DNA from: an uncultured Candidatus Saccharibacteria bacterium
GTDB lineage: Bacteria; Patescibacteriota; Minisyncoccia; Minisyncoccales; CAZWDF01
DNA length: 31,568 nucleotides
Assembly: GCA_964632335.1 (NCBI GenBank)
Contig: CAZWDF010000002.1
Span: 1-31,568 of the forward strand
Direction: 5' to 3'
The position numbers were made by a program, and so were the translations under genes. Positions 452 through 29,561 of the stretch are shown in pieces (positions within the stretch are counted from its first letter, which is position 1; the number at the start of each line of letters is the position of its first letter). A model generated the notes under the pieces. It had not been told where the DNA came from and made no database searches. It saw nothing but the letters and a program-made list of their open reading frames with translations.

Positions 452-946
452 ATGGCAGTTGCAGTACTCAGGTCAATCAAATCAGAGATATTTTACCTAA
501 CGCAAGCGGATGCCACTGCCCAAACGGATTCCCAAGTAGAAAATTACGCTTTGCGGTATACCTATGCACCGATTTGGAAATATCAAGTCCCGGTGAACCA
601 AGAGTTTGTCTTGGCTCCAGAGCACAAGCTCTCAGTCTATATTGAGGACGATGAAAGTAGCCCTGCCGAATGGCGTAGTACGCAAAAAGTGAGGGTTGAG
701 TGGTGGGATGCTAGTCTCAAAAAGATGGAGATTATCTGGGAGGGTCGCTATATATCATGTAAAGAGGAGCAGGATCAAGATAAGATGGCACGTCTTGATA
801 TTATAGGTGGTGAACCGCTAGAAGTGAAATCTGGGGATTGGATTATTATTGCTGGTATGTCTGATGACACGCTGTATACGATTGATGTCTCAGATAGCCG
901 ATTTACCCTTGAATGTCGAAGGTTTAGACCGACCCTAATCCAATAG
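452..946 (+). CDS. Major capsid protein 1, single vertical jelly-roll (Halopanivirales-like)
   Basis: SD GGAGGT; paralogous to 960 and 1868 (WKYQVP, KVRVE..D, KEEQDQDKM); IDVSDSRFTL resembles SH1 VP7 C-terminus as recalled. Confidence 0.72.
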   Translation: MAVAVLRSIKSEIFYLTQADATAQTDSQVENYALRYTYAPIWKYQVPVNQEFVLAPEHKLSVYIEDDESSPAEWRSTQKVRVEWWDASLKKMEIIWEGRYISCKEEQDQDKMARLDIIGGEPLEVKSGDWIIIAGMSDDTLYTIDVSDSRFTLECRRFRPTLIQ

Positions 947-959
947 AGGAGGCAAATAT

Positions 960-1853
960 ATGAAAGAAGTCAAATTTCAACTGACTGACCTAGACCCCAA
1001 CATCACGGAAGATGGTGTTTTTGGGGCTGCTAAGTGGTGCGATACTTGGAGCTTCCAATGCCCTGAAAATATGGGCATTTTGCTGAAACCGGGGGACTAC
1101 TTCTCCATGAAGATGTACGACACTGGTGATGCTGAAATGGCTGCCCCAGATGCCCAGGTCAAGCTCGAAGTTCGTGACCCCTCTGGTCAGGTAGTAGGTG
1201 TTGTCTTCCCACCTGAAAACTACCTTAGCGTAAAGGAATTTCAGCAATACTCCAAGATGGCACAGCTTTGGATAGAGCAACCAATCCTGGTCACTCCCCG
1301 CAGCAAGATTGTCGTTATGACCAAGGATGATCTTGGTACGGATGCAAGTGGTATTGTTCTGAGTTATGCCCGGCTGATAACAACTAAAGTGCTAGGCACA
1401 TTCGCCAAGGGGCAATCACCAAGCCTACCGAGTATTGAGCCTTTCGTTATCATGCAAGAGGATTCCGATGTAACGCAAACAAGTAGCACCGCTGGGAGCC
1501 TGACTGACCTATTCGTCTATCGAGTACCAAAGGGCAGAGCGATAATTCTGAGACCGAGCGATGTCTTTGCCTGCTATCTCTATAACACTTCTTCCGCGGT
1601 CGCAACCAATACCTGCCCGGTAAAACTCGAAGTCCGCGATGCCACTGGCTTAGAGAAAAAGCCCATTCTTGGACCGCTTCAATACGGTAGCTTCCAGGGA
1701 GAGTTCCAGGATAAGGACAAGCTCGTTCACCTTGACATCAACGGCGAACTGACAGTAGTGGAGCAGGAATACATCGCCTTGATGGTAAACAACGCTGTAG
1801 CGATAAACTGTGCTACGAGCTACATGTCGCTTCGTTGCCATATCCGGAGATAA
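960..1853 (+). CDS. Major capsid protein 2, two tandem jelly-roll domains
   Basis: Homologous halves (LLKPGDYFSMKMY..VKLEVRDPSG..KEFQQYSK vs ILRPSDVFACYLY..VKLEVRDATG..GEFQDKDK); MKMYDTGDAEM resembles P23-77 VP16 LKLYDTGGNQL as recalled. Confidence 0.78.
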   Translation: MKEVKFQLTDLDPNITEDGVFGAAKWCDTWSFQCPENMGILLKPGDYFSMKMYDTGDAEMAAPDAQVKLEVRDPSGQVVGVVFPPENYLSVKEFQQYSKMAQLWIEQPILVTPRSKIVVMTKDDLGTDASGIVLSYARLITTKVLGTFAKGQSPSLPSIEPFVIMQEDSDVTQTSSTAGSLTDLFVYRVPKGRAIILRPSDVFACYLYNTSSAVATNTCPVKLEVRDATGLEKKPILGPLQYGSFQGEFQDKDKLVHLDINGELTVVEQEYIALMVNNAVAINCATSYMSLRCHIRR

Positions 1854-1867
1854 AGGAGGCTGCCTAA

Positions 1868-2332
1868 ATGGTTATGACGGCAGTTAAAGAAGAGCGATTC
1901 GAAGTAAACCCGGCATCAACGGGGATAACCGAGCAAGATGGTAGGGGTACTAATTGGTGGGATATTTGGGACTTCAAAGTGTCTCTAAACCAGGTCGTTA
2001 TCCTGCGCCCCACGGATGTATTTTCGTGCTACCTTGTGGGTGACGATGCCGCCGCGATGCCTAACGCCACGAAAGTTCGGGTAGTCAAGCGGGATGTCGC
2101 TAATGAGGACTCTATACCTATTCTCCCGGTGGTGAATTATAAGCAGGCTCAGGAGTTTGCCGATAAGAACTTACAGATGCACCTTCGGGCTCTGGGTGGA
2201 GTTATGGAGGTGGTAGCAGAGGAGCATATCGTAGTTCAGGTTTCCGGGGCTGATGCTACGGGAACTGGAGATACCGATGCTTCGGCATCTCACTTCAAGA
2301 TATTTTGCACCAGAAGGAGAAAGTCGCTCTAA
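1868..2332 (+). CDS. Major capsid protein 3, single vertical jelly-roll
   Basis: ILRPTDVFSCYL, ATKVRVVKRD and QEFADK motifs shared with the 960 domains; SD AAGGAGG. Confidence 0.72.
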   Translation: MVMTAVKEERFEVNPASTGITEQDGRGTNWWDIWDFKVSLNQVVILRPTDVFSCYLVGDDAAAMPNATKVRVVKRDVANEDSIPILPVVNYKQAQEFADKNLQMHLRALGGVMEVVAEEHIVVQVSGADATGTGDTDASASHFKIFCTRRRKSL

Positions 2333-10944: not shown

Positions 10945-10954
10945 GAGGTAAAAC

Positions 10955-11287: not shown

Positions 11288-11320
11288 GGGATAGCCTCAG
11301 ACTATTTAGGAGGGGGAATA

Positions 11321-12518: not shown

Positions 12519-12535
12519 GATAGGACGGGAATAGA

Positions 12536-12820
12536 ATGGCAATCCAGACTGCCGCCGGCATAGGCATGGCTCTTATCGCGAGTGAGCATTTTTACTCTAC
12601 GATGCTATCAAGCCCTCCAACAACTGAGAAGTTCTTTTCTGATACTGACGAGGGCAAGGCAAAGACTAGGCATATGTATTTGACGGCTACAGCCTTATCT
12701 ATAGTCACGGCGGTACTATTGAGCTATATCTTAAAAGAGCCTTGGCCGTTGGTTGCTACCATTGTTCTTTGCATAATTTATATTTACATCTATGAAAGGG
12801 CTTTAAGGGGCGAGGTCTAA
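12536..12820 (+). CDS. Multi-TM membrane protein
   Basis: Hydrophobic segments. Confidence 0.6.
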   Translation: MAIQTAAGIGMALIASEHFYSTMLSSPPTTEKFFSDTDEGKAKTRHMYLTATALSIVTAVLLSYILKEPWPLVATIVLCIIYIYIYERALRGEV

Positions 12821-12821
12821 T

Positions 12822-13256: not shown

Positions 13257-13268
13257 AAGGAGGTGGGG

Positions 13269-13391
13269 GTGAATTTAGGTAAAATAGATACGATACTTTT
13301 CGCAATCCTAGTTCTGGTAGTGCTCATCGAGTTTTACTGGACATGGCAAGACAGAAAGAAAGGAATTCAAAAAGCAGGAGGCGTGTTATGA
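13269..13391 (+). CDS. 40-aa single-TM peptide (not in ORF track)
   Basis: SD AAGGAGGT, GTG start; MNLGKIDTILFAILVLVVLIEFYWTWQDRKK..; stop overlaps ATG 13388. Confidence 0.6.
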   Translation: MNLGKIDTILFAILVLVVLIEFYWTWQDRKKGIQKAGGVL

Positions 13392-13900
13392 ACACAAAAA
13401 CAATCATCTTGGTAGTGGTCACTCTGGGAATAATAGGGCTCATCCTCTGGTTTATGAGGCAGGAGAAGAAACAAACGGGGTTGATGCTGCAAATCATCGA
13501 CAACAAGACGGGAAAGACACTCGAAGCTCACTCGCCAGTCGACTTGCTCGAAGGCGGCTCATACACAATACGAGCCAAGGTCACCAACACCAGCACAAAA
13601 GCTGGCGTGGGCGTAAACGCTCACCTTGCTACGAACCTGGTACTGTCATACACAGACGCAGGCGGAGCAACTAGACTCATAAACTCCAAAACCGATGATG
13701 TTTTTTACATCGCCGGGGCAGCTCGTGTTATAGACCTAGTGGTAACGATACCATCTGATGCCGCAGGGCGTTATGGAGAAGCAATCGCTGTGGTTACTTC
13801 CATGGATGTTAACCAAGAACTAGCTCGCAAAACCATCCCAACAAAATATATAGCTGCTCCGTTCGTTTACGGAGTTTCGCTTGAGTGGGCGGTAATCTAA
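13388..13900 (+). CDS. N-terminally anchored Ig-like domain protein (start MNTKT)
   Basis: TM segment followed by beta-rich YTIRAKVTNT..DLVVTIP. Confidence 0.6.
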   Translation: MNTKTIILVVVTLGIIGLILWFMRQEKKQTGLMLQIIDNKTGKTLEAHSPVDLLEGGSYTIRAKVTNTSTKAGVGVNAHLATNLVLSYTDAGGATRLINSKTDDVFYIAGAARVIDLVVTIPSDAAGRYGEAIAVVTSMDVNQELARKTIPTKYIAAPFVYGVSLEWAVI

Positions 13901-13924
13901 TCCTTTAACTAGGGGAGGTTGACA

Positions 13925-14104
13925 ATGGCAAAAGCGGATAAGTACCAGGTCGAAGACTCTATTCGAGCTGCCAAATGCCCGGATTGTGGTCAATTCATGG
14001 ATAAAGTCCAGGTAGTAGTCATAGCGCAGATTTCCGAGGGCTTGGTTAAGCCGTCTGTGGTAGCTGTAACAGGCTGGGTATGCGCTAAGTGCTGTGAGGA
14101 GTAG
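13925..14104 (+). CDS. Small Zn-ribbon protein
   Basis: CPDC..CAKC. Confidence 0.6.
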   Translation: MAKADKYQVEDSIRAAKCPDCGQFMDKVQVVVIAQISEGLVKPSVVAVTGWVCAKCCEE

Positions 14105-14107
14105 AAT

Positions 14108-14284
14108 ATGCCACTAAAGCAATTCTGCTGTAGCATTTGTGGGAGATGTGCTCCTAAGAAGCTCTTGGAGCATAGTCAATTTACTAATCGCTTAGCCTGG
14201 TTGCGCCGCCATAGGGCGAAGTATCACCCAAAGGCTTTTAAGAAGTCAGTCAAGAAGGCCGTAAAGACTAGGAAGGGAGGTTAG
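14108..14284 (+). CDS. 58-aa basic C2H2-type zinc-finger protein (not in ORF track)
   Basis: CSIC..LRRHRAKYH followed by a Lys-rich tail. Confidence 0.6.
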   Translation: MPLKQFCCSICGRCAPKKLLEHSQFTNRLAWLRRHRAKYHPKAFKKSVKKAVKTRKGG

Positions 14285-14286
14285 GA

Positions 14287-14637
14287 ATGATAAAGATTCT
14301 CAGAGTAACGGCTATCCCAAACACAGTGCCAGATGGAGGGTCATGCACAGTAGTGCTCGAACTTAGTTCAGACCAGATTGGTAAGGTTTATGCCCGCATG
14401 ATGTTCGGTGTATCTGGCTCTAACGGAGAAGAATTTTCTCCAGACCAGAGTTTCGAGAGGGCTATAACTACCAGCATAGACCGCACAAGCTCGCATCCGT
14501 GGAAAATAAAAGTTAGACCGTGTTACGGTAGGAGTTGGGTTTGTAGGGCCTATATCTACAAGACAAGGCTACCTAATGGCAAACTCGAAGATGAGATTGA
14601 CCACCTGTTTGTTGACCCGATATACCAAGTTACTTAG
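14287..14637 (+). CDS. Ig-like protein, unanchored paralog of 12822
   Basis: Shared N-terminus and YGRSW motif. Confidence 0.6.
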   Translation: MIKILRVTAIPNTVPDGGSCTVVLELSSDQIGKVYARMMFGVSGSNGEEFSPDQSFERAITTSIDRTSSHPWKIKVRPCYGRSWVCRAYIYKTRLPNGKLEDEIDHLFVDPIYQVT

Positions 14638-14651
14638 AAGGGAGGTTAGAA

Positions 14652-14747
14652 ATGCCAGAGAAGAAAACGCCAAAGATAATTAAGCCAAAGGTCAATGTAC
14701 CGCAACCGCAAGTACCAGGCACTACACCTGGAAGAAAAGATTGGTGA
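14652..14747 (+). CDS. 31-aa Pro/Lys-rich peptide (not in ORF track)
   Basis: SD GGAGGT; MPEKKTPKIIKPKVNVPQPQVPGTTPGRKDW*; stop overlaps GTG 14744. Confidence 0.5.
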   Translation: MPEKKTPKIIKPKVNVPQPQVPGTTPGRKDW

Positions 14748-15406
14748 AAAAGAAAGGGAAGCAAGCTAAGAGGGGCAATCCTAATAATAACAACGGGGCA
14801 AAGTTAGCTATTCAGCTAACTAACGTCAACGCTGAGATTGATGAGCTAGAACACTATCTCAAAGGGGAAAAAGCGAAAAGGCTTGTCTCCGTTGTTAGGA
14901 AGAGTGGCTGGTATAAAGGGGAGATAGTTGACCTAACACCAAAGCAGTTTAGAGACCTCTTAGGCTATACCCCAAAGCAAGCCAGTATCCGCAAAGGGAA
15001 AGTCCCCTGGGAGTATTGCTTCGACCAACTTGCTACCGAATTAAAATATCCATCAGACGAAGCGCTTAAAAAGGCCGTTGAAAGTGTCATTAAGACTACA
15101 CGGCAAATTGATAGGCTAAAGGCAGAAAAGAATATCTTAGAAAGTGAGATTAAAGCCATGCCAAAGGCAAAAGAGCCACGAGCCGCAGGTGTAAAATTCG
15201 AGAAAAAGCGAATCGCTGTTGATGGTAAAGTAACTGCGTACGAAATCACTAGCGGAAAGCAGAGACTAGGCTATATTGTAGCTTTTCCGCCTACTTATGG
15301 TATATATCCCTCTACCAATGGTTTAGATATTCGGAAAGCTGCTATTGGCGGAGCCCGCTCAATTAAGAAAGCCAAAGAAGTAGCAAAGAAGGAACTCAGG
15401 AGGTAA
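14744..15406 (+). CDS. Basic (Lys-rich) hypothetical protein
   Basis: GTG start coupled to the upstream TGA. Confidence 0.6.
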   Translation: MKKKGKQAKRGNPNNNNGAKLAIQLTNVNAEIDELEHYLKGEKAKRLVSVVRKSGWYKGEIVDLTPKQFRDLLGYTPKQASIRKGKVPWEYCFDQLATELKYPSDEALKKAVESVIKTTRQIDRLKAEKNILESEIKAMPKAKEPRAAGVKFEKKRIAVDGKVTAYEITSGKQRLGYIVAFPPTYGIYPSTNGLDIRKAAIGGARSIKKAKEVAKKELRR

Positions 15407-16868: not shown

Positions 16869-17291
16869 TTAACCATATCTCTGTAAGATTTCTCTTGCGA
16901 ATTTAACTAAGTCCTTAACCTTTGCACCTTTTGGTTGCCAGGATACCCATAATTCAAGATTCTCTATTCTGTTATCATCCTTGACACCATTCTTATGATG
17001 GACACTTTCACCGGGTAGTAATTTCCGACCTAGATATTCCTGCATAACAAGTCGATGGAGAAGTTGTCCTTGTCTCTCTCCGTCAACATATCTGCGGATA
17101 TATCCCTTTGGTTCTTTATAATCATGTCTTTTTCTTATAGGTTTATCAGTAGAACCATACCTTTGAAATCTTCCCCAATGTATCCGACAATAACCATGAC
17201 TCCTGAGATTGAGATTGCATCCTTCAACTTGGCATTTCTGTGGCACCCGATGCCCAAATTTGTGTTTTGGTTTTTCTTCTTCATTATTCAT
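16869..17291 (-). CDS. HNH endonuclease (HNH_3-like) with N-terminal Zn motif
   Basis: [25 protein letters not shown]; C.VEGC..GYCRIH. Confidence 0.85.
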
Positions 17292-17930
17292 GCCTTAATA
17301 TTAACACAAGCTCTTAACAAATACAACCCAATGTATTCCGTGTAGGCTGGGGGGATTGCTTGGGTTAGCTCTCTTATATCCATCCAGTCTATCTGCATGG
17401 CTTTTTCAAGACGTGGCTTAGTCCAGATATTCGGTAAATGCCCCCTTTTAACACTTGTTCCGTGATGGTATGGTAGGTAACCTTCGGCTCGATAATTTTT
17501 GACTTGATGAGGTGCGGGGATAAGAAGAATATCAAAACCAGATAACTCAAATAACCGGCGTCTGATAATCTTTAATCCAAATGACATTCCCGATAGTTCA
17601 ATAGGATTTTCAAGTGGCGCACCAAGGACATTCTCAATCACGAAAGGTTTAGCCGTTTCCTTCAAAGCGAGACGAGTATCATCAATATATTTGCCTGCGC
17701 CTTTCACGCCTTGCATATATTGAGAAATAGAATAGCTTTGGCATGGCGGGCTGGCGTGGTAGGCATCATAGCCTTCCAAGGGAAAGGTCAAGGCATCGGC
17801 TTGGTAGAACTCAAAGGGGTAATGAGGCTGTGGACGATTGTCAATTCCTACGATACGGAAACCTGCTAGGTAATAACCGAGAGCTGCTCCGCCGGCACCA
17901 GAAAAGAGGTCTAGGAGAACTGGGCGTTTT
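17288..17930 (-). CDS. C5-cytosine methyltransferase-like protein (short phage type); start codon unclear
   Basis: [10 protein letters not shown] (motif I), ASPPCQ (motif IV), IENV (motif VI), AIPP; no nearby in-frame ATG/GTG/TTG. Confidence 0.75.
17298..17326 (-). promoter_or_regulatory. Candidate leaderless promoter for HNH 16869..17291, inside the 3' end of the MTase
   Basis: TTGTAT-17-TAATAT, with TG extension, 6 nt before the ATG. Confidence 0.45.
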
Positions 17931-18477
17931 GCGTAATCGTCGTTCCAACTATCTTCCCAGTCAAAGTAAGCTCGTAATGATGGTTTGCACAGAGAAGACG
18001 GAAGTCGGATACGTGTTCCTTGATGTACTTCAAATGACGTGGATGCCTGTAGGGCTTCCCGTTTGTCGTAGGAATATAGTCCACATGAAGCCAATTCGGA
18101 TTGCTCACGCCGCATACTATACATTTACCCCCCAGTATGCGGATGATTTCAAGGCGCTCATTATGTTGTTTCTCTCGCCATGCCCCTGGATGTTTGGCAA
18201 TACGTCTGGAGTTATAAGTAGCCATGATACTAGGGTGTGCTTGGTGCCATGCCAAAGTATTCTTTTGGTAAGCCTTCTTGCTACACGCCTGAGAGCAGTA
18301 GCGCCGATTTTGATCGCCTCTATTGATAGGGAATTCCTTACCACAGACTTTGCAATTACGCACGTTGGGTAAGTGCTTTGCGTATCGCTGAGAGCAACGG
18401 TAGGAACAAAACTTTTTCCGAGATGGTCGTATGGCTTCAACTTCTCGGTCGCAATAGAGACACTTGATTGTTGACAT
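17911..18477 (-). CDS. Zn-finger plus HNH-like endonuclease inserted at the MTase 5' end
   Basis: Repeated CxxC..FCS..C modules; CIVCG..LHVDYI..FRLLCANHH. Confidence 0.7.
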   Translation of the reverse strand: MSTIKCLYCDREVEAIRPSRKKFCSYRCSQRYAKHLPNVRNCKVCGKEFPINRGDQNRRYCSQACSKKAYQKNTLAWHQAHPSIMATYNSRRIAKHPGAWREKQHNERLEIIRILGGKCIVCGVSNPNWLHVDYIPTTNGKPYRHPRHLKYIKEHVSDFRLLCANHHYELTLTGKIVGTTITQNAQFS

Positions 18478-21686: not shown

Positions 21687-21860
21687 CTATTGCAACTCAC
21701 CCTCTTTGAGTTTATGCCACTTCCTAATCTCCCAAAAGCCAAAACAAAAAAACCAATCATAAATATAAGCAAGGTCGGACACTTCTTTGTGCCATCTAAA
21801 CCAATAAAAACCCCGCCACTCAGGAAACCAATTAACGAATTGGAATCGCTTTTTATTCAC
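21687..21860 (-). CDS. 57-aa Trp/Phe-rich peptide (not in ORF track)
   Basis: GTG start coupled to the VRR-NUC stop; MNKKRFQFVNWFPEWRGFYWFRWH.. Confidence 0.5.
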   Translation of the reverse strand: MNKKRFQFVNWFPEWRGFYWFRWHKEVSDLAYIYDWFFCFGFWEIRKWHKLKEGELQ

Positions 21861-22213
21861 TGCAACTCCACCTCGGCCACTCGGGGGTCAAAGTGACAAA
21901 GATACGGATATAAGTCATGCAACTTTTTGATGACGACAGCCCAGGCACCCTGTTTCAAAACTTCATCCATGAAGTCATATTGGGCTTGGCTTAATTTGCC
22001 ACTATCTCCCTTCGTCTCCACATAAACCAAATGCCCTTTAATCAGCACCATGTAGTCGAAAGTGCCAGGACGACAGAGTTTGATTCGACGTCTACCTCCA
22101 GCAAACAGGGCAATGATTTCCCCACTATTCAGCCTGTCCCAGTACAGGATTCCCTTCTTTTCGAGGATTGAGAGATACTCTTCAAGGCTCTGCTTCAGTT
22201 CGGATTCCTTCAC
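21857..22213 (-). CDS. VRR-NUC domain nuclease (Holliday-junction resolvase-like)
   Basis: RLNSG..PGTFDYMV..VYVETK..GKLSQAQYDF. Confidence 0.8.
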   Translation of the reverse strand: MKESELKQSLEEYLSILEKKGILYWDRLNSGEIIALFAGGRRRIKLCRPGTFDYMVLIKGHLVYVETKGDSGKLSQAQYDFMDEVLKQGAWAVVIKKLHDLYPYLCHFDPRVAEVELQ

Positions 22214-22380
22214 TTCGCCACATCCTTTGCCTTTATTGCCAGACACCGCCTACACAATGGCTCTGTTTTGGCTGTGCGTCTCCAATGCAACAAGCCACAT
22301 AGCGTTGTGAAATCAGCACCGCACCACGTATCTTTTATTAGGTGAATCTTTTTGCCTCCCTTTGCCCTAACGTATGTCAT
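22210..22380 (-). CDS. 56-aa Zn-binding mini-protein (not in ORF track)
   Basis: KIHL..TLCG..LCRRC; SD AAGGA. Confidence 0.5.
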   Translation of the reverse strand: MTYVRAKGGKKIHLIKDTWCGADFTTLCGLLHWRRTAKTEPLCRRCLAIKAKDVAK

Positions 22381-22410
22381 TTCCTTACCTTCTCCAGCCC
22401 CAGATGATTC

Positions 22411-22596
22411 TCATTTGCTTGTCTCTTTACGACTATTGGTACGAATGTACCTTAGTATATTCTTGGGGGTGTAATAAGTAAGTTCCTGTTCCTTCTCATA
22501 AGGTGGATTTTTTATGATAGCTAGTATCCTATTCCACGGCATACCAGCAGGTATGGTATCATCTATGATTTGAAATTCTTGTTTGCCTTTCCTCAT
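22411..22596 (-). CDS. Hypothetical protein (start MRKGKQ)
   Basis: SD GGAAGGAG 5 nt upstream of the ATG. Confidence 0.5.
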   Translation of the reverse strand: MRKGKQEFQIIDDTIPAGMPWNRILAIIKNPPYEKEQELTYYTPKNILRYIRTNSRKETSK

Positions 22597-22601
22597 TCTC
22601 A

Positions 22602-22738
22602 CTCCTTCCCGCATCCGGGGGAGAGGTGCTTCACACCTACAAGATTAAATTTTGTTTCTCCTCGTAGAGTCTTCGACCCGAGGGTAGAATCTGTTTCACT
22701 AGTCGCCCCCAGACTCTACCCCCGGGATGGAAAGGAGA
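22602..22738 (-). ncRNA. Putative structured cis-regulatory RNA containing palindrome copy 6 (22661-22677)
   Basis: Outer stem 22602-21 / 22719-37, hairpin 22624-38, 12-bp stem 22682-93 / 22710-21. Confidence 0.45.
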
Positions 22739-22744
22739 TAGGGA

Positions 22745-23578
22745 CTATTCAGGGTACAACTTCTTCACTGCTTCAAGAGCCTTAACTGGTCCCTGCTTCC
22801 ACTCTGCCATAGTCTTCACCCCCAACATTGCTACCACATCTGCTTGAATGAGACCTTTCTTTCGGGAATAAGTCCAAAGTTCAGTATAGTCATCTGACTT
22901 TGTGGCTTTGGGCTTTTCTGCTTCGGTTTGGGGCTTTGCCTCTGGGCTTTGTCCTATTGGACTCTCAGGCTCAACCGCTTCCTTCTCTATACTCTCAGGC
23001 ATGTCTTCCAAATCCTGAGTGAACACATTAGACAGCCTACCGGCACTCAGGGCCGCATCCACCAAGGCTCGCTTCTTTGCCATCTTTAGGATAGTGTTGA
23101 CTTGGCTGAAAATGTCCTCATTATCAAAACGATAGACTGTCCAATGTCCACCTGTTTTAGAACGTCTTTCCTGGCTAACCAACTTAGTCTTATCAATTCC
23201 CTCTGGTAAATCCCTCTCACCTATCCACCGGTAGTGGTATTTGCTCTCCATACTGTTACATTCGCCAAAGCCCTGCGATATGATAGTCCCAGTTGCCAAA
23301 TGCCGAAGGTTGCACTGTAGCAGGTATCGGAAAAATGGCTTATTCCAATCCTCTTGCCTATCCAAGATTTCATATTCATCTGCCAAGCCAAGAAGTTTGA
23401 CTATCTTCTCGGCACCAGGCTTTAGTAACGTGGGCTTTGTAGTGCCGGGGATCACGCCATAATCCTGATCCTTGACCATGTTGGCATGAACTATTTGCTG
23501 GAACTTGTTGATTGCCTGAATGCTTTGCCTGAATTGTGCCTCGTCTGGTAGTGCTAGTGCTGTAGTTTCCATTGTCAT
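22745..23578 (-). CDS. Putative single-strand annealing protein (Rad52/Erf-like, inferred)
   Basis: DYGVIPGTTKPTLLKPGAEK..KMAKKRALVDA..FTQDLED; next to a PD-(D/E)XK nuclease. Confidence 0.5.
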   Translation of the reverse strand: MTMETTALALPDEAQFRQSIQAINKFQQIVHANMVKDQDYGVIPGTTKPTLLKPGAEKIVKLLGLADEYEILDRQEDWNKPFFRYLLQCNLRHLATGTIISQGFGECNSMESKYHYRWIGERDLPEGIDKTKLVSQERRSKTGGHWTVYRFDNEDIFSQVNTILKMAKKRALVDAALSAGRLSNVFTQDLEDMPESIEKEAVEPESPIGQSPEAKPQTEAEKPKATKSDDYTELWTYSRKKGLIQADVVAMLGVKTMAEWKQGPVKALEAVKKLYPE

Positions 23579-23757
23579 CTTTCTTCTCCTTCCTTTTTCT
23601 CTGTTATGGATATAGCTTTTTCGTAGGCTTTAGAAACTGCTGCCTCGGCTTGCTGGAGGGTAACCGCAGCATTTCTTACTTGCCTCATCGCTACCTCAAA
23701 CTCTTCCCACGCCTCAGCCTTTGCCTTCTTATAGGCTCTGTGTTTCTTGTCCATCAT
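23575..23757 (-). CDS. Small coiled-coil protein
   Basis: Helical Ala/Glu/Lys-rich; coupled to neighbouring genes. Confidence 0.5.
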   Translation of the reverse strand: MMDKKHRAYKKAKAEAWEEFEVAMRQVRNAAVTLQQAEAAVSKAYEKAISITEKKEGEER

Positions 23758-23774
23758 TCTCCCCCTTATCCTAC

Positions 23775-24446
23775 TTATCCTATTAGACCCTTCACGGTCT
23801 TGTGCCTCTTATGCAGATTCAAACAACTCAGAAAGGACTCCCACGCATCCGGCAATTCCTGTCTCCAGATGTGGTCGAAGCCCGCCGTGTCTTTGTCTAT
23901 GCGGAGCAGGTGGAATCCGCCCTCCAGTAGCATATCAGGGTGATTCTCTTCCCATGCTGCACGGTAGGCGGCAATCTGAAGGGCATACTCCTCGTGGATG
24001 GAATTGCTACTCTTCCAGTCAAACAAGCAAAGCCTGTCGTTTATCCGGGCAATGCAGTCTGGCGTAGCCCCATACTGCCAAATCTCAGAGACAAGATGTG
24101 GTTCGAGGGCCACAACTTCAAGATGATTCTGCCCTTTCCAAACAGTGAAACTAACAAAGGCTTGTATAGCCTTTAACTTTATGCCCTCTTCAACCTCTTC
24201 GGGAATATGGTATTCCTCTTTCTTTAGGTTAGCCTCAATCATTGCATGGCATATCGTTCCCGCATCCGCCGCCCTCTGCATTGTCCCTTTATAATCTTGT
24301 GGTCTTCCCGATAAGCCGTCATCATGCCCTCTGTTATAGTTCCAAATACACAATGGGGTCTTTGACCAGCCAAGGTTAGAGCCAATGATAGTTGTAGTCC
24401 CCGATACCCGATCGCCGTTTTTGTTTCTGTAGTCAATCGTAGGCAT
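23775..24446 (-). CDS. PD-(D/E)XK exonuclease-like protein (start MPTIDY)
   Basis: GTICHAMIE..YGATPDCIA..LFDWKSS..LQIAAY. Confidence 0.85.
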   Translation of the reverse strand: MPTIDYRNKNGDRVSGTTTIIGSNLGWSKTPLCIWNYNRGHDDGLSGRPQDYKGTMQRAADAGTICHAMIEANLKKEEYHIPEEVEEGIKLKAIQAFVSFTVWKGQNHLEVVALEPHLVSEIWQYGATPDCIARINDRLCLFDWKSSNSIHEEYALQIAAYRAAWEENHPDMLLEGGFHLLRIDKDTAGFDHIWRQELPDAWESFLSCLNLHKRHKTVKGLIG

Positions 24447-24456
24447 TGTTTTCCTT

Positions 24457-24708
24457 TCAGTGGATTGGCTTGTGCCACTCCCCAACCGTGGCAATGGCCT
24501 CCTCCCGCCCTGCCTCAAAGGTTTTACCCTTGATGAGGTCAATAAGCTCGGTAAGTGTGCCTTCCCACACCAACTCATCAGTATGGATAAGCCTTAACTC
24601 CCACCGTCCCCCTCCCTCATGGGCTTTGAGGTTCCCCTCGAGTGTTACAAATTGCCTATCACCTTCGGACTCATAGCACCGGAACCCCATCGATTTATAG
24701 TTTTCCAT
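24457..24708 (-). CDS. Hypothetical protein
   Basis: SD AGGAG; co-oriented. Confidence 0.5.
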   Translation of the reverse strand: MENYKSMGFRCYESEGDRQFVTLEGNLKAHEGGGRWELRLIHTDELVWEGTLTELIDLIKGKTFEAGREEAIATVGEWHKPIH

Positions 24709-24720
24709 GTCTCTCCTTTC

Positions 24721-24933
24721 CTAGTTCCTTGACGATAGCGCCTCTATCGCCAACCCTTCCATGCGTTCCACAAACTCATTTCTTCTCTGTATTTGAATCT
24801 CCCCCCACAACTGGCATGTTGCCGGGGCGGGTAGTCCTACATCTTCACCATGGTGGTGTGTCTTGGTATGAACTCCAGCCGATAGAAAGGTCGGCTGCTG
24901 CTCTTTGCAATTAAGACACTTGATGGTCTGCAT
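24721..24933 (-). CDS. Small Cys-containing hypothetical protein
   Basis: CLNC..C. Confidence 0.5.
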   Translation of the reverse strand: MQTIKCLNCKEQQPTFLSAGVHTKTHHHGEDVGLPAPATCQLWGEIQIQRRNEFVERMEGLAIEALSSRN

Positions 24934-25170
24934 TTACTTCATCCTCTCCGTAAATTCCTTCTTTGTGAGACCGCAATCCAAACAAACTCCATCTGAGAAA
25001 AAATGACCGTAGAGGGATCGCTTACCGTGTCTCTTCCATCCAATAACACGGTAGAGTTTGAGTCCCTCTTTTACCGAAGGCTTTGCCATTTTCCCTCTCC
25101 TTTCTTTTAGGCAGCCTGGCGAGCAAAGCGGTAACTCTGCCAAGAGGTGACATGACCTAACGAGGTACAA

Positions 25171-25187
25171 GTCAAAGACTCTTCGAG
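25171..25187 (+). promoter_or_regulatory. Dispersed 17-bp palindrome, copy 7
   Basis: GTCAAAGACTCTTCGAG, 7 nt after the stop of the HTH gene. Confidence 0.7.
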
Positions 25188-25194
25188 CTGGCGC

Positions 25195-25383
25195 TCAAAC
25201 CCCGCCGTTTCCCTTTGTCTGCCTTAACCTTTCTATTTCCCCCTTATCAAGAAACCGAAGATGCCCGATGGCAAGGGGATGTAACTTCCCCGCCTTTATC
25301 CAGTCATAAATTGTTTGGCGGGACACCTTCAGCAGTTTAGCCGCCTCACTGAAGTTTACTAACCTTAGAATTATCTCATCCAT
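25195..25383 (-). CDS. Excisionase/HTH_17-like DNA-binding protein (start MDEIIL)
   Basis: NFSEAAKLLKVSRQTIYDWIKAGKL. Confidence 0.85.
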   Translation of the reverse strand: MDEIILRLVNFSEAAKLLKVSRQTIYDWIKAGKLHPLAIGHLRFLDKGEIERLRQTKGNGGV

Positions 25384-25402
25384 TTCCTTATTTCCTACCG
25401 TT

Positions 25403-25431
25403 ATTTTACACCATACCTTACAGTCTGTCAA
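25403..25431 (-). promoter_or_regulatory. Sigma70 promoter of the early/recombination operon
   Basis: TTGACA-17-TAAAAT. Confidence 0.75.
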
Positions 25432-25493
25432 GTGGTAAAACATTACAATTTTATGACAAAATGAGTAAATTATGTGCTGTTTTGGAAAGTTGA

Positions 25494-26399
25494 CTATACA
25501 TTATCCACTACTTTCCTTTTCGGGCGGTAATCCCCCGCCTGATTCCAGCAGACCTTGCACAGTTTCTTGTCTTTGAACCTAGAGGCAATAGCTTTATTTA
25601 CTGTCTCAAGGCGCTTAAAGCTACAATCCATTGTGGCAATGAGTGGCTTCTCAAACATGTAGAAGTGGTTTACCAAATCTTCAATAACCGCCACTTGGTA
25701 AGGCGTACCCTGCATCGCCATCAAGTCATCCAGGATCAGGAAGTCGCAATCTTTGAGTTCCTTGATTATGCCCTCTGGCCGATCTGTATCTGTCTCCATA
25801 CCCAGCCTCAGCCGGTGCATCAAGTTCCGCACATCGACAAACTTTACCCACAACCCCCGATCCTTCGCCTCCAGTCCAGCAGCAAAGGCAATGTGGCTCT
25901 TCCCGCAACCGTTCACGCCGTATATCAGGAGTAATTTATACTCCGATTGCCCCTTAGATAGTACCCAAGCCGAATGAGCCGCATCATCTATCCCAGGCAC
26001 TTCCCAGTTTAGACTCTCGAACCGGCACTCCCGCCGTGTCTCCGGTATGCCAGAGTGTGCCAGTATTCTCTCTTTCTTCTCGTCTTCCCAGGCTGAGCAA
26101 TGAGGACATGGGGTAACCGTAGTGTCTTCATGGTCTCTTGTCACGATCCAGCCAATATCTAGGCAAGTGAGGCAAGAGGCTTCCCGGTAGGGGTCTACCT
26201 TAGAGGCCACCAGCGGCACCTTCACCCCCATAAACTCATGCCATAACTCAAACTGCCGACCTTTCGGTAAGGTATCGAGCTCAGGATGCAAGTCTCGAAA
26301 CTTTTTCCGCAGCGCGAGCGCCTCTTCCCAAAGATCCTCAAAAGTCTGGGGGCTCGAAGTTATCTCCGAATCGGTCTGTTCCTGGCTTTGTGACATCAT
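25494..26399 (-). CDS. DnaC/IstB-like AAA+ helicase loader
   Basis: CLTC..CPHC Zn motif, Walker A GVNGCGKS, Walker B LILDD; downstream of the initiator. Confidence 0.85.
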   Translation of the reverse strand: MMSQSQEQTDSEITSSPQTFEDLWEEALALRKKFRDLHPELDTLPKGRQFELWHEFMGVKVPLVASKVDPYREASCLTCLDIGWIVTRDHEDTTVTPCPHCSAWEDEKKERILAHSGIPETRRECRFESLNWEVPGIDDAAHSAWVLSKGQSEYKLLLIYGVNGCGKSHIAFAAGLEAKDRGLWVKFVDVRNLMHRLRLGMETDTDRPEGIIKELKDCDFLILDDLMAMQGTPYQVAVIEDLVNHFYMFEKPLIATMDCSFKRLETVNKAIASRFKDKKLCKVCWNQAGDYRPKRKVVDNV

Positions 26400-27027
26400 T
26401 CTGCCTCTCTTTTTTTGCCCAATTTCTTAGTCTACTCTTCCAATCGGCCTTACTATGTTTTGACTTCCTGGAGTGCCAATCGCGGCATTGGCGCAAGTCT
26501 TCAAGGTTAAAATTAGGGTAGGAGACCATAAACTCCGCTAACCATACCGAATCACTCTCACTATCAGATTGCCCCCAGCTAGGTAATATTTGAAGATGTT
26601 TTACTTGAAGAGGACTCACTGAGGGCTCCATGAGGGCTCCGTGAGGGCTCAATGAGTCTGCATCGTGTAGTTTTGGTAAAGTCTTCAATTCTTCTTCTGG
26701 AGTAATGCTGCCTTGGTATTCACCCCAATTAAGAATAGTGATCCCATCTGAGTTCTCCGAAATGCGTACTTGTACTTTGAGTTTCACTAGGGTATTGTCA
26801 AGCAATTCAAGCGGGATATTAAATCGGTTAGCTAGATAACTATGAGGGAAAGGGAATCCCTCTCCTGACTGAATTATGCCAGGAACTCGGCACTCATTGG
26901 CTAAGGCAAGTAAATCCGCCCATATAGACCGCTCGGCTGGGTCTAAGTCAAAGCGGAGGGTGCCTTCAAGCCATTGATGTGTCCAGAGCTTTATCCACCA
27001 TCTCTTTTTTAGGCTGCCTCGCGCCAT
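26338..27027 (-). CDS. Phage replication initiator (replisome-organizer-like)
   Basis: WWIKLW..AERSIWADLLALA N-terminal domain; C-terminal CRDW..KADWKSRLRNW; internal iterons. Confidence 0.75.
   Translation of the reverse strand: MARGSLKKRWWIKLWTHQWLEGTLRFDLDPAERSIWADLLALANECRVPGIIQSGEGFPFPHSYLANRFNIPLELLDNTLVKLKVQVRISENSDGITILNWGEYQGSITPEEELKTLPKLHDADSLSPHGALMEPSVSPLQVKHLQILPSWGQSDSESDSVWLAEFMVSYPNFNLEDLRQCRDWHSRKSKHSKADWKSRLRNWAKKERQNDVTKPGTDRFGDNFEPPDF
26620..26652. repeat. Three tandem 11-bp iterons, candidate replication origin
   Basis: TGAGGGCTCCA / TGAGGGCTCCG / TGAGGGCTCAA next to an AT-rich stretch (26584-26609). Confidence 0.7.
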
Positions 27028-27175
27028 GTAATACTCCTAGTCCAGCTTGTAGACATTCCCTAACCAGCGCCGATTTTTCCTTTCCTTCTATAAGAGCTGT
27101 AGCTGCTAGCTCCCTCATCTGAGCATCGGAAAGTAAAACCACAAGACGATGTTTGTAGAACTTTCGCTCTTTCAC
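26966..27175 (-). CDS. Ribbon-helix-helix (CopG-like) regulator
   Basis: RLVVLLSDAQMRELA..KSALVRECL. Confidence 0.7.
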   Translation of the reverse strand: MKERKFYKHRLVVLLSDAQMRELAATALIEGKEKSALVRECLQAGLGVLHGARQPKKEMVDKALDTSMA

Positions 27176-27182: not shown

Positions 27183-27210
27183 ATTATACTCCTATGTGCT
27201 TAAAAGTCAA
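27183..27210 (-). promoter_or_regulatory. Sigma70 promoter; probably leaderless RHH-initiator-loader transcript
   Basis: TTGACT-16-TATAAT, 7 nt before GTG 27175. Confidence 0.65.
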
Positions 27211-28790: not shown

Positions 28791-29561
28791 TCACTCTTGG
28801 CTTCTTTGATTCGGCTTTTTAGGCTCTGTAGGGCTTTCAGGTATTTCTCCCATGCCCCGTCTGATTGGCTCACTTTTCTCCGGTAGTGCTACTTTCTCTG
28901 CTACGGTTCGCGGTCTTTCTTTTTCGGTAACGCTAACGACTTTGGGTTTACGTGATAGCTCTAGGGTTTGTGGTTCCATGGGCTCATTATGCCGCGCTGC
29001 ATCTATGGAGTATTGAAGGAACTCCCAATCGCCAAGATTCATTATACGAGAACACAAATCCTTGCCTACCATATCGGTAATGTATTGCTTAGCTTGGATG
29101 CCACACTGGAAGAAGAAGACATGAGAACAGCGCCCGAAGAAGCGCTTGTTAATCTCCTGGATTCGCTGCGTTACGGCGATGATGCCTATGCCCCAATTTC
29201 GCCCGACATTTATGAGTTCCGAAGTCCACGTTCCGAACCTCATATATTGCCCGATGTAAAGGTCAGCCTCTTCGATGATAAATTGAAAGTCCTTGACAGA
29301 ACACAAGTATTCACAGACATTATTAAACTCTATGATGCTATCGGAATTCTTTGGCAGGTATCGACATTTATCAGGGAAGTTCCGATATTGTTTAAGTGGA
29401 TCATAGATAAGTAATCGATCTTCAGGAATTGCTGAGGCAAGATACTTAGCCATCGTGGTCTTGCCACTACCAGGCATACCACAGATAAGGATTCTATCTG
29501 TGCTACTCATGGGGCGCAGTTGCCCGATGTCGCTATTGGATTGGTTGCTCGGCTCCGGCAT
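28791..29561 (-). CDS. FtsK/HerA-superfamily (A32-like) genome-packaging ATPase
   Basis: Walker A GMPGSGKT, IYDP, Walker B IIEEAD, GRNWGIGIIAVTQR arginine-finger/sensor motif. Confidence 0.85.
   Translation of the reverse strand: MPEPSNQSNSDIGQLRPMSSTDRILICGMPGSGKTTMAKYLASAIPEDRLLIYDPLKQYRNFPDKCRYLPKNSDSIIEFNNVCEYLCSVKDFQFIIEEADLYIGQYMRFGTWTSELINVGRNWGIGIIAVTQRIQEINKRFFGRCSHVFFFQCGIQAKQYITDMVGKDLCSRIMNLGDWEFLQYSIDAARHNEPMEPQTLELSRKPKVVSVTEKERPRTVAEKVALPEKSEPIRRGMGEIPESPTEPKKPNQRSQE

What the first reader, a model, noticed from the sequence alone, without database searches (positions are those of the whole stretch)
21857..27175. Tailed-phage-style replication and recombination module joined to a jelly-roll morphogenesis module
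Seen: RHH, initiator with iterons, DnaC-like loader, HTH, PD-(D/E)XK nuclease, putative annealing protein and VRR-NUC in one arm. Known: this cassette is typical of temperate Caudoviricetes, whereas described Halopanivirales use protein-primed polymerases, rolling-circle Rep or other initiators. Inference: a cross-lineage chimera using theta replication with the host DnaB.
Basis: partly seen in the sequence, partly recalled or inferred. Interest (0 to 1): 0.58.

Follow-up and report, generated by a model that had tools for sequence, protein, structure and literature searches.

The report
Phage-type replication module in tailless virus
A complete 31.5-kb circular genome of an uncultivated tailless, jelly-roll-capsid bacterial virus copies and recombines its DNA with genes whose known relatives all sit in tailed phages; this is real but is a further example of the known swapping of replication modules between unrelated viruses.

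Summary
Observation confirmed. On the minus strand, 27175 to 21857 encodes:
- an RHH-like protein (weak match);
- a DnaD/replisome-organiser-type initiator with four 11-nt iterons inside its own gene;
- a DnaC/DnaI-like AAA+ helicase loader;
- an HTH_17 protein;
- a PD-(D/E)XK exonuclease;
- a 277-aa protein that I now read as a Rad52-superfamily annealing protein;
- a VRR-NUC-like nuclease (weak match).

The opposite arm carries Halopanivirales-type capsid genes. A model of the 452-946 protein (pLDDT 92) matches only HCIV-1, SH1, HHIV-2 and P23-77 capsid proteins.

Every relative of the module that I could place is in a tailed phage. One IMG/VR phage with a terminase and a major head protein carries the same four gene types in a different order. 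The only complete relative from the same capsid lineage (39,956 bp) lacks this module. It has a different exonuclease and a Sak4-type recombinase instead.

So the genome is an evolutionary mosaic. An assembly artefact is unlikely, because a genome-specific 15-nt palindrome occurs on both arms, but no reads were available to test this directly.

Theta replication using host DnaB is inferred, not shown. Module replacement is already documented for other tailless phages. Notes from this scan report similar combinations on other DNA.

Interest is moderate.

The parts
27183..27210 (-). Promoter-like site (TTGACT, 16-nt spacer, TATAAT; 11 of 12 matches) just upstream of the first gene of the module
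   Evidence: This is a consensus match only.
26966..27175 (-). Small RHH-like DNA-binding protein (69 aa); probable regulator of the module
   Evidence: VapB_antitoxin E 1.4e-3, below the cut-off; phrog_4113 E 2.7e-4. The sequence shows a strand-helix-helix pattern. Weak.
26338..27027 (-). Replication initiator of the DnaD / phage replisome-organiser type (229 aa)
   Evidence: PF09681 19.3 bits (cut-off 23.3); phrog_1032 E 1.7e-4; homologues carry PF09681 and PF07261, and the closest homologue is 85% identical; 49% identity to the DnaD-like protein of tailed phage L074.
26610..26653 (.). Iteron array: four 11-nt repeats with core GAGCCCTC (read on the minus strand), inside the initiator gene. 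A roughly 30-nt stretch of about 70% A+T follows at 26577-26609. Candidate origin.
   Evidence: These are the only exact copies of the 8-mer in the window, and all are in phase.
25494..26399 (-). DnaC/DnaI-like AAA+ helicase loader (301 aa). It has Walker A GVNGCGKS, Walker B FLILDD and an N-terminal CxxC...CxxC region.
   Evidence: phrog_50 E 5.6e-31. PF00308 E 3.5e-9 and PF01695 E 1.6e-7; 227 tailed-phage records match. The motifs were read.
25195..25443 (-). HTH_17 (excisionase/MerR-like) DNA-binding protein. The true start is probably the ATG at 25380 (codon 22), downstream of the promoter-like site at 25403-25431.
   Evidence: HTH_17 E 5.6e-11. TTGACA, 17-nt spacer, TAAAAT.
24457..25170 (-). 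Three small ORFs (78, 70 and 83 aa) with no family match; two are Cys-rich
   Evidence: no hits.
23775..24578 (-). PD-(D/E)XK recombination exonuclease. The probable start is Met45 at 24446, giving 223 aa. The PD...DWK...QxxxY motifs are present.
   Evidence: phrog_298 E 1.9e-24. PDDEXK_1 E 1.1e-3; annotated exonucleases of tailed phages; homologues lie next to the SSAP gene in 10 of 80 loci.
23575..23757 (-). 60-aa helical ORF between the exonuclease and SSAP genes; function unknown
22745..23578 (-). Single-strand annealing protein of the Rad52 superfamily (277 aa): an N-terminal annealing domain, a disordered linker and a C-terminal three-helix domain like the Red-beta C-terminal domain
   Evidence: phrog_10048 E 5.8e-60; model with pLDDT 72; the top BFVD hit is a RecT family protein at E 2.5e-10, and nearly all named hits are RecT, ERF, Rad52, Sak3 or Bet; residues 227-277 match 6m9k_D at Z 4.8, rmsd 2.5 A over 51 aa.
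22210..22614 (-). Two small ORFs (67 and 56 aa) of unknown function
21857..22246 (-). VRR-NUC-like nuclease (129 aa) with a D...ExK...Q motif (GTFDY ... VETK ... SQAQ); candidate branch or junction resolvase
   Evidence: VRR_NUC 18 bits (cut-off 23.8); phrog_93 E 3.7e-7. The motif was read.
25172..25186 (.). One of seven copies of a genome-specific palindrome, TCRAAGASTCTTYGA. The other copies are at 224, 7487, 18564, 21221, 21395 and 22662.
   Evidence: 7 copies found against 0.17 expected; absent from all other fetched loci.
452..2332 (+). Three capsid genes encoding four paralogous vertical single jelly-roll domains (context: the morphogenesis module)
   Evidence: pLDDT 92.3; the top 25 hits are all HCIV-1, SH1, HHIV-2 or P23-77 capsid proteins; best E 7.8e-7, TM 0.68.
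28791..29561 (-). P-loop packaging ATPase of the capsid lineage (context)
   Evidence: the only cultured-phage matches are two small Vibrio phages of 10.6 and 11.2 kb. By my recollection, not checked here, the 1.249.A-type isolate belongs to the tailless Autolykiviridae.

Best explanation
The window is a genuine, complete, circular 31,513-bp genome of a tailless bacterial virus. Its capsid is of the vertical single jelly-roll type (Halopanivirales-like, kingdom Helvetiavirae).

Its replication and recombination genes come from the gene pool used by tailed phages.

Likely mechanism (inferred):
1. A promoter at about 27.2 kb drives the RHH regulator, the initiator and the loader.
2. The DnaD/replisome-organiser-type initiator binds the four helically phased 11-nt iterons inside its own gene.
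3. The adjacent A+T-rich stretch melts.
4. The DnaC/DnaI-like loader delivers the host DnaB-type helicase. Host primase and polymerase then carry out bidirectional (theta) replication, because the virus has no ORF large enough to encode these enzymes.
5. The downstream exonuclease and Rad52-superfamily annealing protein form a Red/RecET-like two-component recombinase. The annealing protein's C-terminal domain resembles the part of Red-beta that binds lambda Exo and SSB. This pair would act in repair and recombination-dependent replication.
6. The VRR-NUC nuclease trims or resolves branched intermediates.

Shown:
- the gene identities;
- the iterons;
- the capsid fold;
- the placement of the module's relatives in tailed phages;
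- the absence of the module from the complete capsid-lineage relative.

Inferred:
- origin function;
- recruitment of host DnaB;
- the theta mode of replication;
- the recombinase partnership;
- the direction of gene transfer.
For: Module genes.

Iterons:
- The only three exact GAGCCCTC copies lie 11 nt apart, with a fourth degenerate copy.
- An A+T-rich stretch follows them.

Initiator:
- Its homologues carry PF09681 and PF07261.

No room for a helicase or polymerase:
- Apart from the 953-aa spike and a 387-aa protein in the structural arm, no ORF exceeds 301 aa.

Capsid:
- A pLDDT 92.3 model matches HCIV-1, SH1, HHIV-2 and P23-77 capsid proteins exclusively in the top 25 hits.
- The structural arm has no Pfam or PHROG hit to terminase, portal or HK97 capsid.
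- Terminase, head and portal proteins taken from related phage contigs find nothing in the window.

Affinity to tailed phages:
- The SSAP matches 16 cultured Caudoviricetes records at 25-43% identity.
- The loader matches 227 records.
- The exonuclease matches annotated phage exonucleases.
- Atlas neighbours are 82-94% viral, mostly Uroviricota.
- L074 (G003) carries exonuclease, SSAP (66%), DnaD-like initiator (49%) and a DnaC-like loader, together with a terminase large subunit and a major head protein.
- None of 80 SSAP-bearing IMG/VR loci has the window's capsid or ATPase genes.

Module replacement inside the capsid lineage:
- G001 (39,956 bp, with direct terminal repeats) shares four capsid paralogues, the ATPase, the tyrosine recombinase, the N6-methyltransferase and two further genes.
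- G001 has no loader match.
- It carries a phrog_1218 exonuclease and a Sak4/AAA_24 protein instead.

SSAP fold.

Against a chimeric assembly:
- The palindrome occurs 7 times against 0.17 expected, on both arms and inside the module.
- The module is flanked by genes shared with G001.
- The assembly closes on itself.
Against: - No reads were available, so coverage and read-pair continuity across 15.6-15.8 kb and across the junction are untested.
- Three of the seven annotations (RHH, initiator, VRR-NUC) fall below curated Pfam cut-offs for the query itself.
- The SSAP profile shows no similarity to lambda Bet (hhalign probability 0.6%).
- Its N-terminal domain matches solved RAD52 only at noise level (Z 3.4-3.5). 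Unrelated LptE-like folds score higher (Z 6.4).
- The host is unknown. The bin that holds the contig is compositionally mixed, with GC from 0.30 to 0.65, and the contig correlates with it at only r = 0.615. The DnaB hits in that bin therefore say nothing about the true host.
- The direction of transfer is inferred from abundance, not from a rooted tree.
Confidence: 0.72

Rival explanations
1. Assembly chimera: a contig from a tailed phage and a contig from a jelly-roll virus were joined by the assembler, so the combination does not exist in nature.
For: The source is a metagenome. The bin that holds the contig is heterogeneous. The module's closest relatives are in tailed phages. The tetranucleotide test cannot tell own segments from foreign ones: own segments give r = 0.68-0.83 and foreign segments give up to 0.855.
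Against: - The genome-specific palindrome lies on both arms and three times in or beside the module (224, 7487, 18564, 21221, 21395, 22662, 25172). It is absent from all other loci.
- The module is embedded between genes shared with capsid-lineage relative G001: the ATPase and tyrosine recombinase on one side and the N6-methyltransferase on the other.
- The assembly closes as a circle.
- GC is even, at 0.45-0.475.
- No terminase, portal or tail gene came along with the module.
- G001 independently combines the same capsid genes with tailed-phage-type recombination genes.
Confidence: 0.05
2. The module is not borrowed from tailed phages. It belongs to a pool of replication and recombination genes shared by many bacterial mobile elements, or it is old in this capsid lineage. 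Tailed phages dominate the matches only because they dominate the databases.
For: - No single donor exists. Gene order differs from L074, and identities to L074 range from 66% (SSAP) and 49% (initiator) to 30% (exonuclease) and undetected (loader).
- A close variant has both an 87% identical ATPase and an 85% identical initiator, which suggests the association is stable over short timescales.
- No rooted tree was made.
Against: - The complete relative G001 and the partial relative L004 lack the module.
- The SSAP family has more than 6,400 members. The capsid family has only 209 representative proteins at E <= 0.001 among 1.84 billion.
- Of the 4 SSAP-bearing contigs examined in full, 3 have tailed-phage hallmark genes.
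- SSAP identity to tailed-phage homologues is 66-74%. This far exceeds the 27-54% seen between the capsid-lineage genes of the window and G001.
Confidence: 0.18
3. The genome does not replicate by initiator-driven theta replication. The DnaD-like and DnaC-like pair might serve replication restart, or mainly recombination-dependent or rolling-circle (sigma) replication that produces multimers. The neighbouring tyrosine recombinase would then resolve these before packaging.
For: A full recombination set is present: exonuclease, SSAP and VRR-NUC. A minimal tyrosine recombinase lies next to the ATPase. By my own knowledge, lambda-type phages switch from theta to sigma replication.
Against: In-phase iterons inside the initiator gene, followed by an A+T-rich stretch, are the classic layout of an origin for initiator-driven unwinding. 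No HUH rolling-circle Rep was found. The two modes do not exclude each other.
Confidence: 0.12

Closest known systems
Replication modules of temperate siphoviruses of Gram-positive bacteria (DnaD-like replisome organiser plus DnaC/DnaI-like loader; for example Bacillus phages PfEFR-4 and IEBH, Staphylococcus phage phiETA and Geobacillus phage GBSV1), and the lambda O/P paradigm
   Same: An initiator with its origin repeats inside its own gene is followed directly by an AAA+ loader. The virus has no helicase of its own, so it depends on the host helicase. The lambda and SPP1 layouts are from my own knowledge of Weigel and Seitz 2006, which is cited in PMC1950889.
   Different: Sequence identity is low: 22-29% for the loader, and the initiator has no match in cultured phages. 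The module sits in a genome with a jelly-roll capsid rather than an HK97 capsid.
IMG/VR tailed-phage contig IMGVR_UViG_3300011118_000016 (L074 / G003, 35,478 bp)
   Same: It carries the same four gene types: PD-(D/E)XK exonuclease, phrog_10048 SSAP (66% identity), DnaD-like initiator (49% identity over the N-terminal domain) and DnaC-like loader.
   Different: It has a terminase large subunit and a major head protein. The recombination genes come before the replication genes. The exonuclease is only 30% identical, and the loader was not detected at E 1e-5.
Lambda Red (Exo plus Bet) and RecET two-component recombinases
   Same: A PD-(D/E)XK exonuclease gene lies next to a Rad52-superfamily annealing protein gene. 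The annealing protein has a small C-terminal helical domain that superposes on the Red-beta C-terminal domain, which binds Exo and SSB (6m9k_D, 8tfu_A).
   Different: There is no sequence or profile similarity to lambda Bet or Exo. No Gam gene is present. A 60-aa ORF separates the two genes. The SSAP family (phrog_10048) has no Pfam model and, as far as I could find, no characterised member.
Described Halopanivirales: Sphaerolipoviridae (SH1, HHIV-2, HCIV-1), Simuloviridae (SNJ1) and Thermus phages P23-77 and IN93
   Same: Vertical single jelly-roll capsid proteins in several paralogues, and a small packaging ATPase.
   Different: Sphaerolipoviridae have linear genomes with terminal proteins and are probably protein-primed (PMC12643093, PMC5332951). 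Simuloviridae use rolling-circle RepA (PMC12642351). None is reported to have a DnaD/DnaC-type module or an exonuclease/SSAP pair.
PM2-like (Vinavirales) tailless phages and prophages with interchangeable replication modules
   Same: A conserved jelly-roll morphogenesis core is combined with several unrelated replication systems, so replication genes are not part of the viral 'self' (PMC1950889). Replacement of replication modules was noted again for gut Vinavirales (PMC9502842).
   Different: They belong to a different realm, with double jelly-roll capsids (Varidnaviria) rather than single vertical jelly-rolls (Singelaviria, PMC12714852). Their genomes are smaller, and they use different replication proteins.

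Membership tests
Phage replisome organiser / DnaD-like initiators (PF09681, PF07261) | N-terminal DNA-binding domain that matches the family model | tested here: inconclusive
   The query scores 19.3 bits against a cut-off of 23.3. Nine homologues at 46-61% identity carry PF09681, and one also carries PF07261. The L074 homologue matches phrog_186 at E 3.2e-8.
Phage replisome organiser / DnaD-like initiators (PF09681, PF07261) | Repeated binding sites (iterons) at or inside the initiator gene | tested here: met
   Four 11-nt repeats at 26610-26653. The only exact copies of the core in the window are in this array.
Phage replisome organiser / DnaD-like initiators (PF09681, PF07261) | Origin binding and origin-dependent replication | not testable with these tools
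   Needs a plasmid replication assay or a footprinting experiment.
DnaC/DnaI-type AAA+ helicase loaders | AAA+ domain that matches the family models, with Walker A and Walker B motifs | tested here: met
   phrog_50 E 5.6e-31. PF00308 scores 37.5 bits and PF01695 scores 31.5 bits, both above their cut-offs. GVNGCGKS and FLILDD are visible.
DnaC/DnaI-type AAA+ helicase loaders | Binds and loads a DnaB-family helicase | not testable with these tools
   The host is unknown. The DnaB hits in the bin come from a compositionally mixed bin.
Red/RecET-like two-component recombinase | PD-(D/E)XK 5'-3' exonuclease partner | tested here: met
   phrog_298 E 1.9e-24. The PD...DWK...QxxxY motifs are visible. 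A homologous exonuclease lies next to the SSAP gene in 10 of 80 loci.
Red/RecET-like two-component recombinase | Annealing protein with the Rad52-superfamily fold | tested here: inconclusive
   For: the top BFVD hit is a RecT family protein at E 2.5e-10, and nearly all other named hits are ERF, Rad52, Sak3, Bet or SSAP. Foldseek gives RAD52 a probability of 0.77. Against: RAD52 reaches only Z 3.4-3.5 with VIA-align, hhalign against lambda Bet gives a probability of 0.6%, and no Pfam family matches.
Red/RecET-like two-component recombinase | C-terminal domain of the annealing protein that binds its exonuclease and SSB | tested here: inconclusive
   Residues 227-277 superpose on the Red-beta C-terminal domain: 6m9k_D at Z 4.8, rmsd 2.5 A, 51 aa and 20% identity, and 8tfu_A at Z 4.2. 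A small helical domain at a middling Z.
VRR-NUC nucleases (PF08774) | Family model match and the D...ExK catalytic motif | tested here: inconclusive
   18 bits against a cut-off of 23.8. phrog_93 E 3.7e-7. The motif GTFDY...VETK...SQAQ is present.
Halopanivirales-type virions (Helvetiavirae) | Vertical single jelly-roll major capsid proteins in two or more paralogues | tested here: met
   Model pLDDT is 92.3. The top 25 Foldseek hits are all capsid proteins of HCIV-1, SH1, HHIV-2 or P23-77. Four paralogous domains align.
Halopanivirales-type virions (Helvetiavirae) | FtsK/HerA-type packaging ATPase | tested here: inconclusive
   Only P-loop and AAA family hits. The only cultured-phage matches are two small Vibrio phages at about 30% identity.
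Caudoviricetes (tailed phages) | HK97-fold capsid protein, terminase large subunit and portal | tested here: not met
   The ten largest plus-arm ORFs tested have no Pfam or PHROG hit to any of these. Terminase, head and portal queries taken from related phage contigs find nothing in the window. The capsid protein has a different fold.

The most novel reading that the evidence does not exclude
This would be the first documented virus with a Helvetiavirae-type (single vertical jelly-roll) capsid to replicate through a bacterial DnaD/DnaC-type origin system and to carry a Red-like recombinase. It would also show that this mesophilic bacterial branch of the lineage exchanges whole replication and recombination modules with tailed phages repeatedly, because its relative has Sak4 and a different exonuclease. 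In addition, the phrog_10048 protein, with more than 6,400 homologues and no Pfam model, would be an uncharacterised, widespread family of Rad52-superfamily annealing proteins with a Red-beta-like partner-binding tail. Such a family could be useful for recombineering in little-studied bacteria.
Probability: 0.5. Interest if true: 0.5.

Novelty: new variant of a known kind. Interest (0 to 1): 0.4.

Why it matters
It extends a known rule to the realm Singelaviria. The rule is that capsid genes define a virus lineage while replication genes are interchangeable.

It gives a concrete, testable origin-initiator-loader set for a group of tailless bacterial viruses that has no cultured member.

It also supports a bacterial host for the lineage, because DnaD/DnaC-type loaders serve DnaB-type helicases.

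As a side benefit, it points to a very large uncharacterised family of phage annealing proteins.

It does not overturn any current view. Mosaicism of this kind is expected by specialists.

Tried and rejected
I could not see whether they carry the module.
- Single-sequence scans of IMG/VR with the ATPase found nothing.
- Scans of genome and metagenome contigs with the ATPase alignment gave P-loop-only matches, apart from two short contigs.
- A search of 400 genomes of the bin's phylum found no ATPase relative.
- A nucleotide search of the module against cultured phages found no match.
- The initiator protein has no match in cultured phages.
- An HK97 capsid family search (PF05065) on five SSAP-bearing contigs was negative. 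PHROG scans then found a terminase, a head protein or a portal in three of the four contigs examined.
- SSAP: no Pfam family, even at E 1, over 47 members. No solved-structure relative by sequence. hhalign against lambda Bet was negative.
- BLASTP of the exonuclease against lambda Exo was negative.
- Tetranucleotide composition used as a chimera test showed no discontinuity. It has no power, because foreign viral segments correlate equally well.
- Bin membership used as host evidence was rejected. The bin has GC from 0.30 to 0.65, the contig correlates with it at r = 0.615, and there are no spacer-like short matches and no second copy.
- The idea of a single block transfer from an L074-like phage was rejected, because gene order and identities differ.

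Full report
**What the window is.**

- The first and last 55 nt are identical, so this is a circularly closed assembly of 31,513 bp.
- Genes run outward in two arms: plus strand from about 250 to 15,400, and minus strand from about 31,460 down to 15,800. GC skew changes sign accordingly.
- The contig is C2 of a 1.52-Mb, 257-contig bin.
- That bin spans GC 0.30-0.65. The contig's tetranucleotide profile correlates with the rest of it at only r = 0.615, whereas ten of the eleven other largest contigs give about 0.96-0.98 (C1 gives 0.84). There are no spacer-like matches and no second copy.
- I therefore do not use the bin as host evidence.

**The observation.**

Four are secure:
- DnaC-like loader: phrog_50 E 5.6e-31, with Bac_DnaA and IstB_IS21 above their cut-offs.
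- HTH_17: E 5.6e-11.
- PD-(D/E)XK exonuclease: phrog_298 E 1.9e-24.
- The 277-aa protein: phrog_10048 E 5.8e-60, function unannotated.

Three are weak for the query itself:
- RHH: E 1.4e-3.
- Initiator: PF09681 at 19.3 bits against a cut-off of 23.3.
- VRR-NUC: 18 bits against 23.8.

Further evidence for the weak calls:
- The initiator gains support from its homologues, which carry PF09681 and in one case PF07261.
- It is also 49% identical to a protein that matches the DnaD-like phrog_186.
- The VRR-NUC protein shows the D...ExK...Q motif in its sequence.

The iterons are clear:
- The 8-mer GAGCCCTC occurs exactly three times in the whole window.
- All three copies are spaced 11 nt apart, with a fourth copy that has one mismatch.
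- The array lies in the middle of the initiator gene and is followed by about 30 nt of roughly 70% A+T.
- A near-consensus promoter-like site lies just upstream of the RHH gene.

**The other arm.**

- None of the ten largest plus-arm ORFs tested matches a structural protein family in Pfam or PHROGs.
- The three genes at 452-2332 encode four paralogous domains.
- A profile of these domains finds only 209 representative proteins among 1.84 billion.
- An AlphaFold model of the first protein, built on 88 sequences, has pLDDT 92.3.
- Its 25 best matches among solved structures are all capsid proteins of HCIV-1, SH1, HHIV-2 and P23-77. The best E-value is 7.8e-7 and the TM-score is 0.68.
- Terminase, major head and portal proteins taken from related phage contigs find nothing here.

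**What the 277-aa protein is.**

- It has more than 6,400 homologues.
- It has no Pfam family, even at E 1, across 47 members.
- It has no sequence relative among solved structures.
- Its model (pLDDT 72) has an N-terminal alpha/beta domain ending in a long helix, a disordered linker and a C-terminal three-helix domain.
- Against predicted viral structures, the best hit is a RecT family protein at E 2.5e-10. Nearly every other named hit in the top 50 is an ERF, Rad52, Sak3, Bet or 'single-strand annealing' protein.
- Against solved structures, the N-terminal domain is inconclusive. RAD52 gets a Foldseek probability of 0.77 but only Z 3.4-3.5, and LptE-like folds score higher.
- The C-terminal domain superposes on the Red-beta C-terminal domain, which binds lambda Exo and SSB: Z 4.8, rmsd 2.5 A over 51 residues, 20% identity.
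- A profile comparison with lambda Bet is negative.
- A homologue of the window's exonuclease lies directly beside the gene in 10 of 80 related loci.
- Taken together, I read it as a Rad52-superfamily annealing protein that partners the exonuclease, with about 80% confidence.

**Where the module's relatives live.**

- Cultured-phage matches are all Caudoviricetes:
  - 16 records for the SSAP, including Lacticaseibacillus phage R9.1, Geobacillus virus E2, D6E and Myxococcus Mx4;
  - 227 records for the loader;
  - annotated exonucleases for the exonuclease.
- Language-model neighbours are 82-94% viral, mostly Uroviricota.
- Among the 80 best of 485 IMG/VR loci that carry the SSAP, none has the window's capsid or ATPase genes.
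- Contig L074 (G003) carries exonuclease, SSAP (66%), DnaD-like initiator (49%) and a DnaC-like loader (phrog_50 E 1.8e-55) in a row. The same contig also has a terminase large subunit and a major head protein.
- Two further contigs carry a terminase or a portal.
- L074 has the recombination genes before the replication genes, its exonuclease is only 30% identical, and its loader is too distant to detect. The window's region is therefore itself a mosaic, not one block from one donor.
- Other accessory genes of the minus arm also recur on these phage contigs. These are the N6 and C5 methyltransferases and the HNH genes.

**The capsid lineage's own relatives.**

G001 (39,956 bp, direct terminal repeats):
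- It shares four separate capsid paralogues, the ATPase, the tyrosine recombinase, the N6-methyltransferase and three further genes.
- It has no loader match.
- Instead it carries an exonuclease of another family (phrog_1218) and a Sak4/AAA_24 recombinase.
- It also carries 7-deazaguanine-type modification genes.

L004 (partial) has a full-length integrase and no module gene.

Two short contigs encode an 87% identical ATPase and an 85% identical initiator. This is consistent with a close variant of the same virus.

The lineage thus keeps its capsid core while its replication and recombination genes are replaced.

**Is it an assembly artefact?**

I could not map reads. The indirect evidence argues against it:
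- A 15-nt palindrome, TCRAAGASTCTTYGA, occurs seven times against 0.17 expected. Copies lie before the capsid genes (224), inside the structural arm (7487), and in or beside the module (25172, 22662, 21395, 21221, 18564).
- The palindrome is absent from all other fetched loci.
- The module lies between genes shared with G001.
- GC is even, at 0.45-0.475. The tetranucleotide test has no discriminating power here.

**Mechanism.**

- No ORF other than the spike (953 aa) and one structural-arm protein (387 aa) exceeds 301 aa. The virus therefore cannot encode a DnaB-size helicase or a polymerase.
- This fits the general finding that small dsDNA viruses lacking a helicase encode initiators and DnaC-like loaders (PMC4889955).
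- The most likely scheme is initiator binding at the intragenic iterons, melting of the A+T-rich flank, and loader-mediated delivery of host DnaB, followed by theta replication.
- The exonuclease/SSAP pair and the VRR-NUC nuclease would support repair and recombination-dependent replication.
- These steps are inferred.

**Comparison with the literature and novelty.**

- Described Halopanivirales replicate otherwise: probably protein-primed without a canonical polymerase (PMC12643093, PMC5332951), or rolling-circle RepA (PMC12642351).
- Helvetiavirae now sit in their own realm, Singelaviria (PMC12714852).
- Interchangeable replication modules on a conserved jelly-roll core were described long ago for PM2-like prophages (PMC1950889) and again for gut Vinavirales (PMC9502842).
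- Unchecked notes from this scan report jelly-roll virion modules on tailed-phage-like replicons in other genomes.
- The finding is thus a new combination that follows a known pattern: real, well supported and moderately interesting.

Noticed in passing
window 224, 7487, 18564, 21221, 21395, 22662, 25172: A 15-nt palindrome, TCRAAGASTCTTYGA, occurs seven times against 0.17 expected. It lies mostly at gene boundaries and is absent from every other fetched locus. It may be a virus-specific operator or terminator element. Here it was used only as evidence against chimerism.
   Followed up: partly
G000 (the bin holding the window): The bin is compositionally mixed: contig GC runs from 0.30 to 0.65, and four DnaB-family hits lie on four contigs. 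The viral contig fits it poorly (r = 0.615). Sampled genomes of the bin's order and class are 0.5-0.9 Mb, which suggests an ultra-small bacterial lineage, but host assignment from binning is unsafe.
   Followed up: partly
L003 12500-17116 and L065 16342-16794 (relative G001): The capsid-lineage relative carries a queuine tRNA-ribosyltransferase-like gene, a GTP cyclohydrolase-like gene, a Vut_1-family transporter-like gene and a Mom-like gene. This suggests DNA modification of the 7-deazaguanine type, which the window's virus lacks.
   Followed up: no
window 12057-12518; L080 4939-5337: A gene in the structural arm has a LAGLIDADG-like motif (YIAGLFDGEG). It has a 39% identical homologue directly after the SSAP gene on a phage contig. 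Together with four or five HNH genes, this points to heavy traffic of homing endonucleases.
   Followed up: no
window 17288-18477; L090 6846-8038: The overlapping HNH and C5-methyltransferase gene pair recurs at 63% and 53% identity. It is on an IMG/VR contig that also has the SSAP, a DnaC-like gene and a portal-like protein. This accessory cassette is therefore shared with tailed phages too.
   Followed up: no
window 26338-26399 and 26966-27027: As called from the first start codons, the RHH and initiator genes overlap by 62 nt, and so do the initiator and loader genes. The true starts of the downstream genes, or translational coupling, were not resolved.
   Followed up: no
L074 12025-12289: The gene between the DnaD-like and DnaC-like genes of the tailed-phage relative contains a long imperfect 12-nt tandem array (about 24 copies, GCTGCTGCTTGG).
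   Followed up: no
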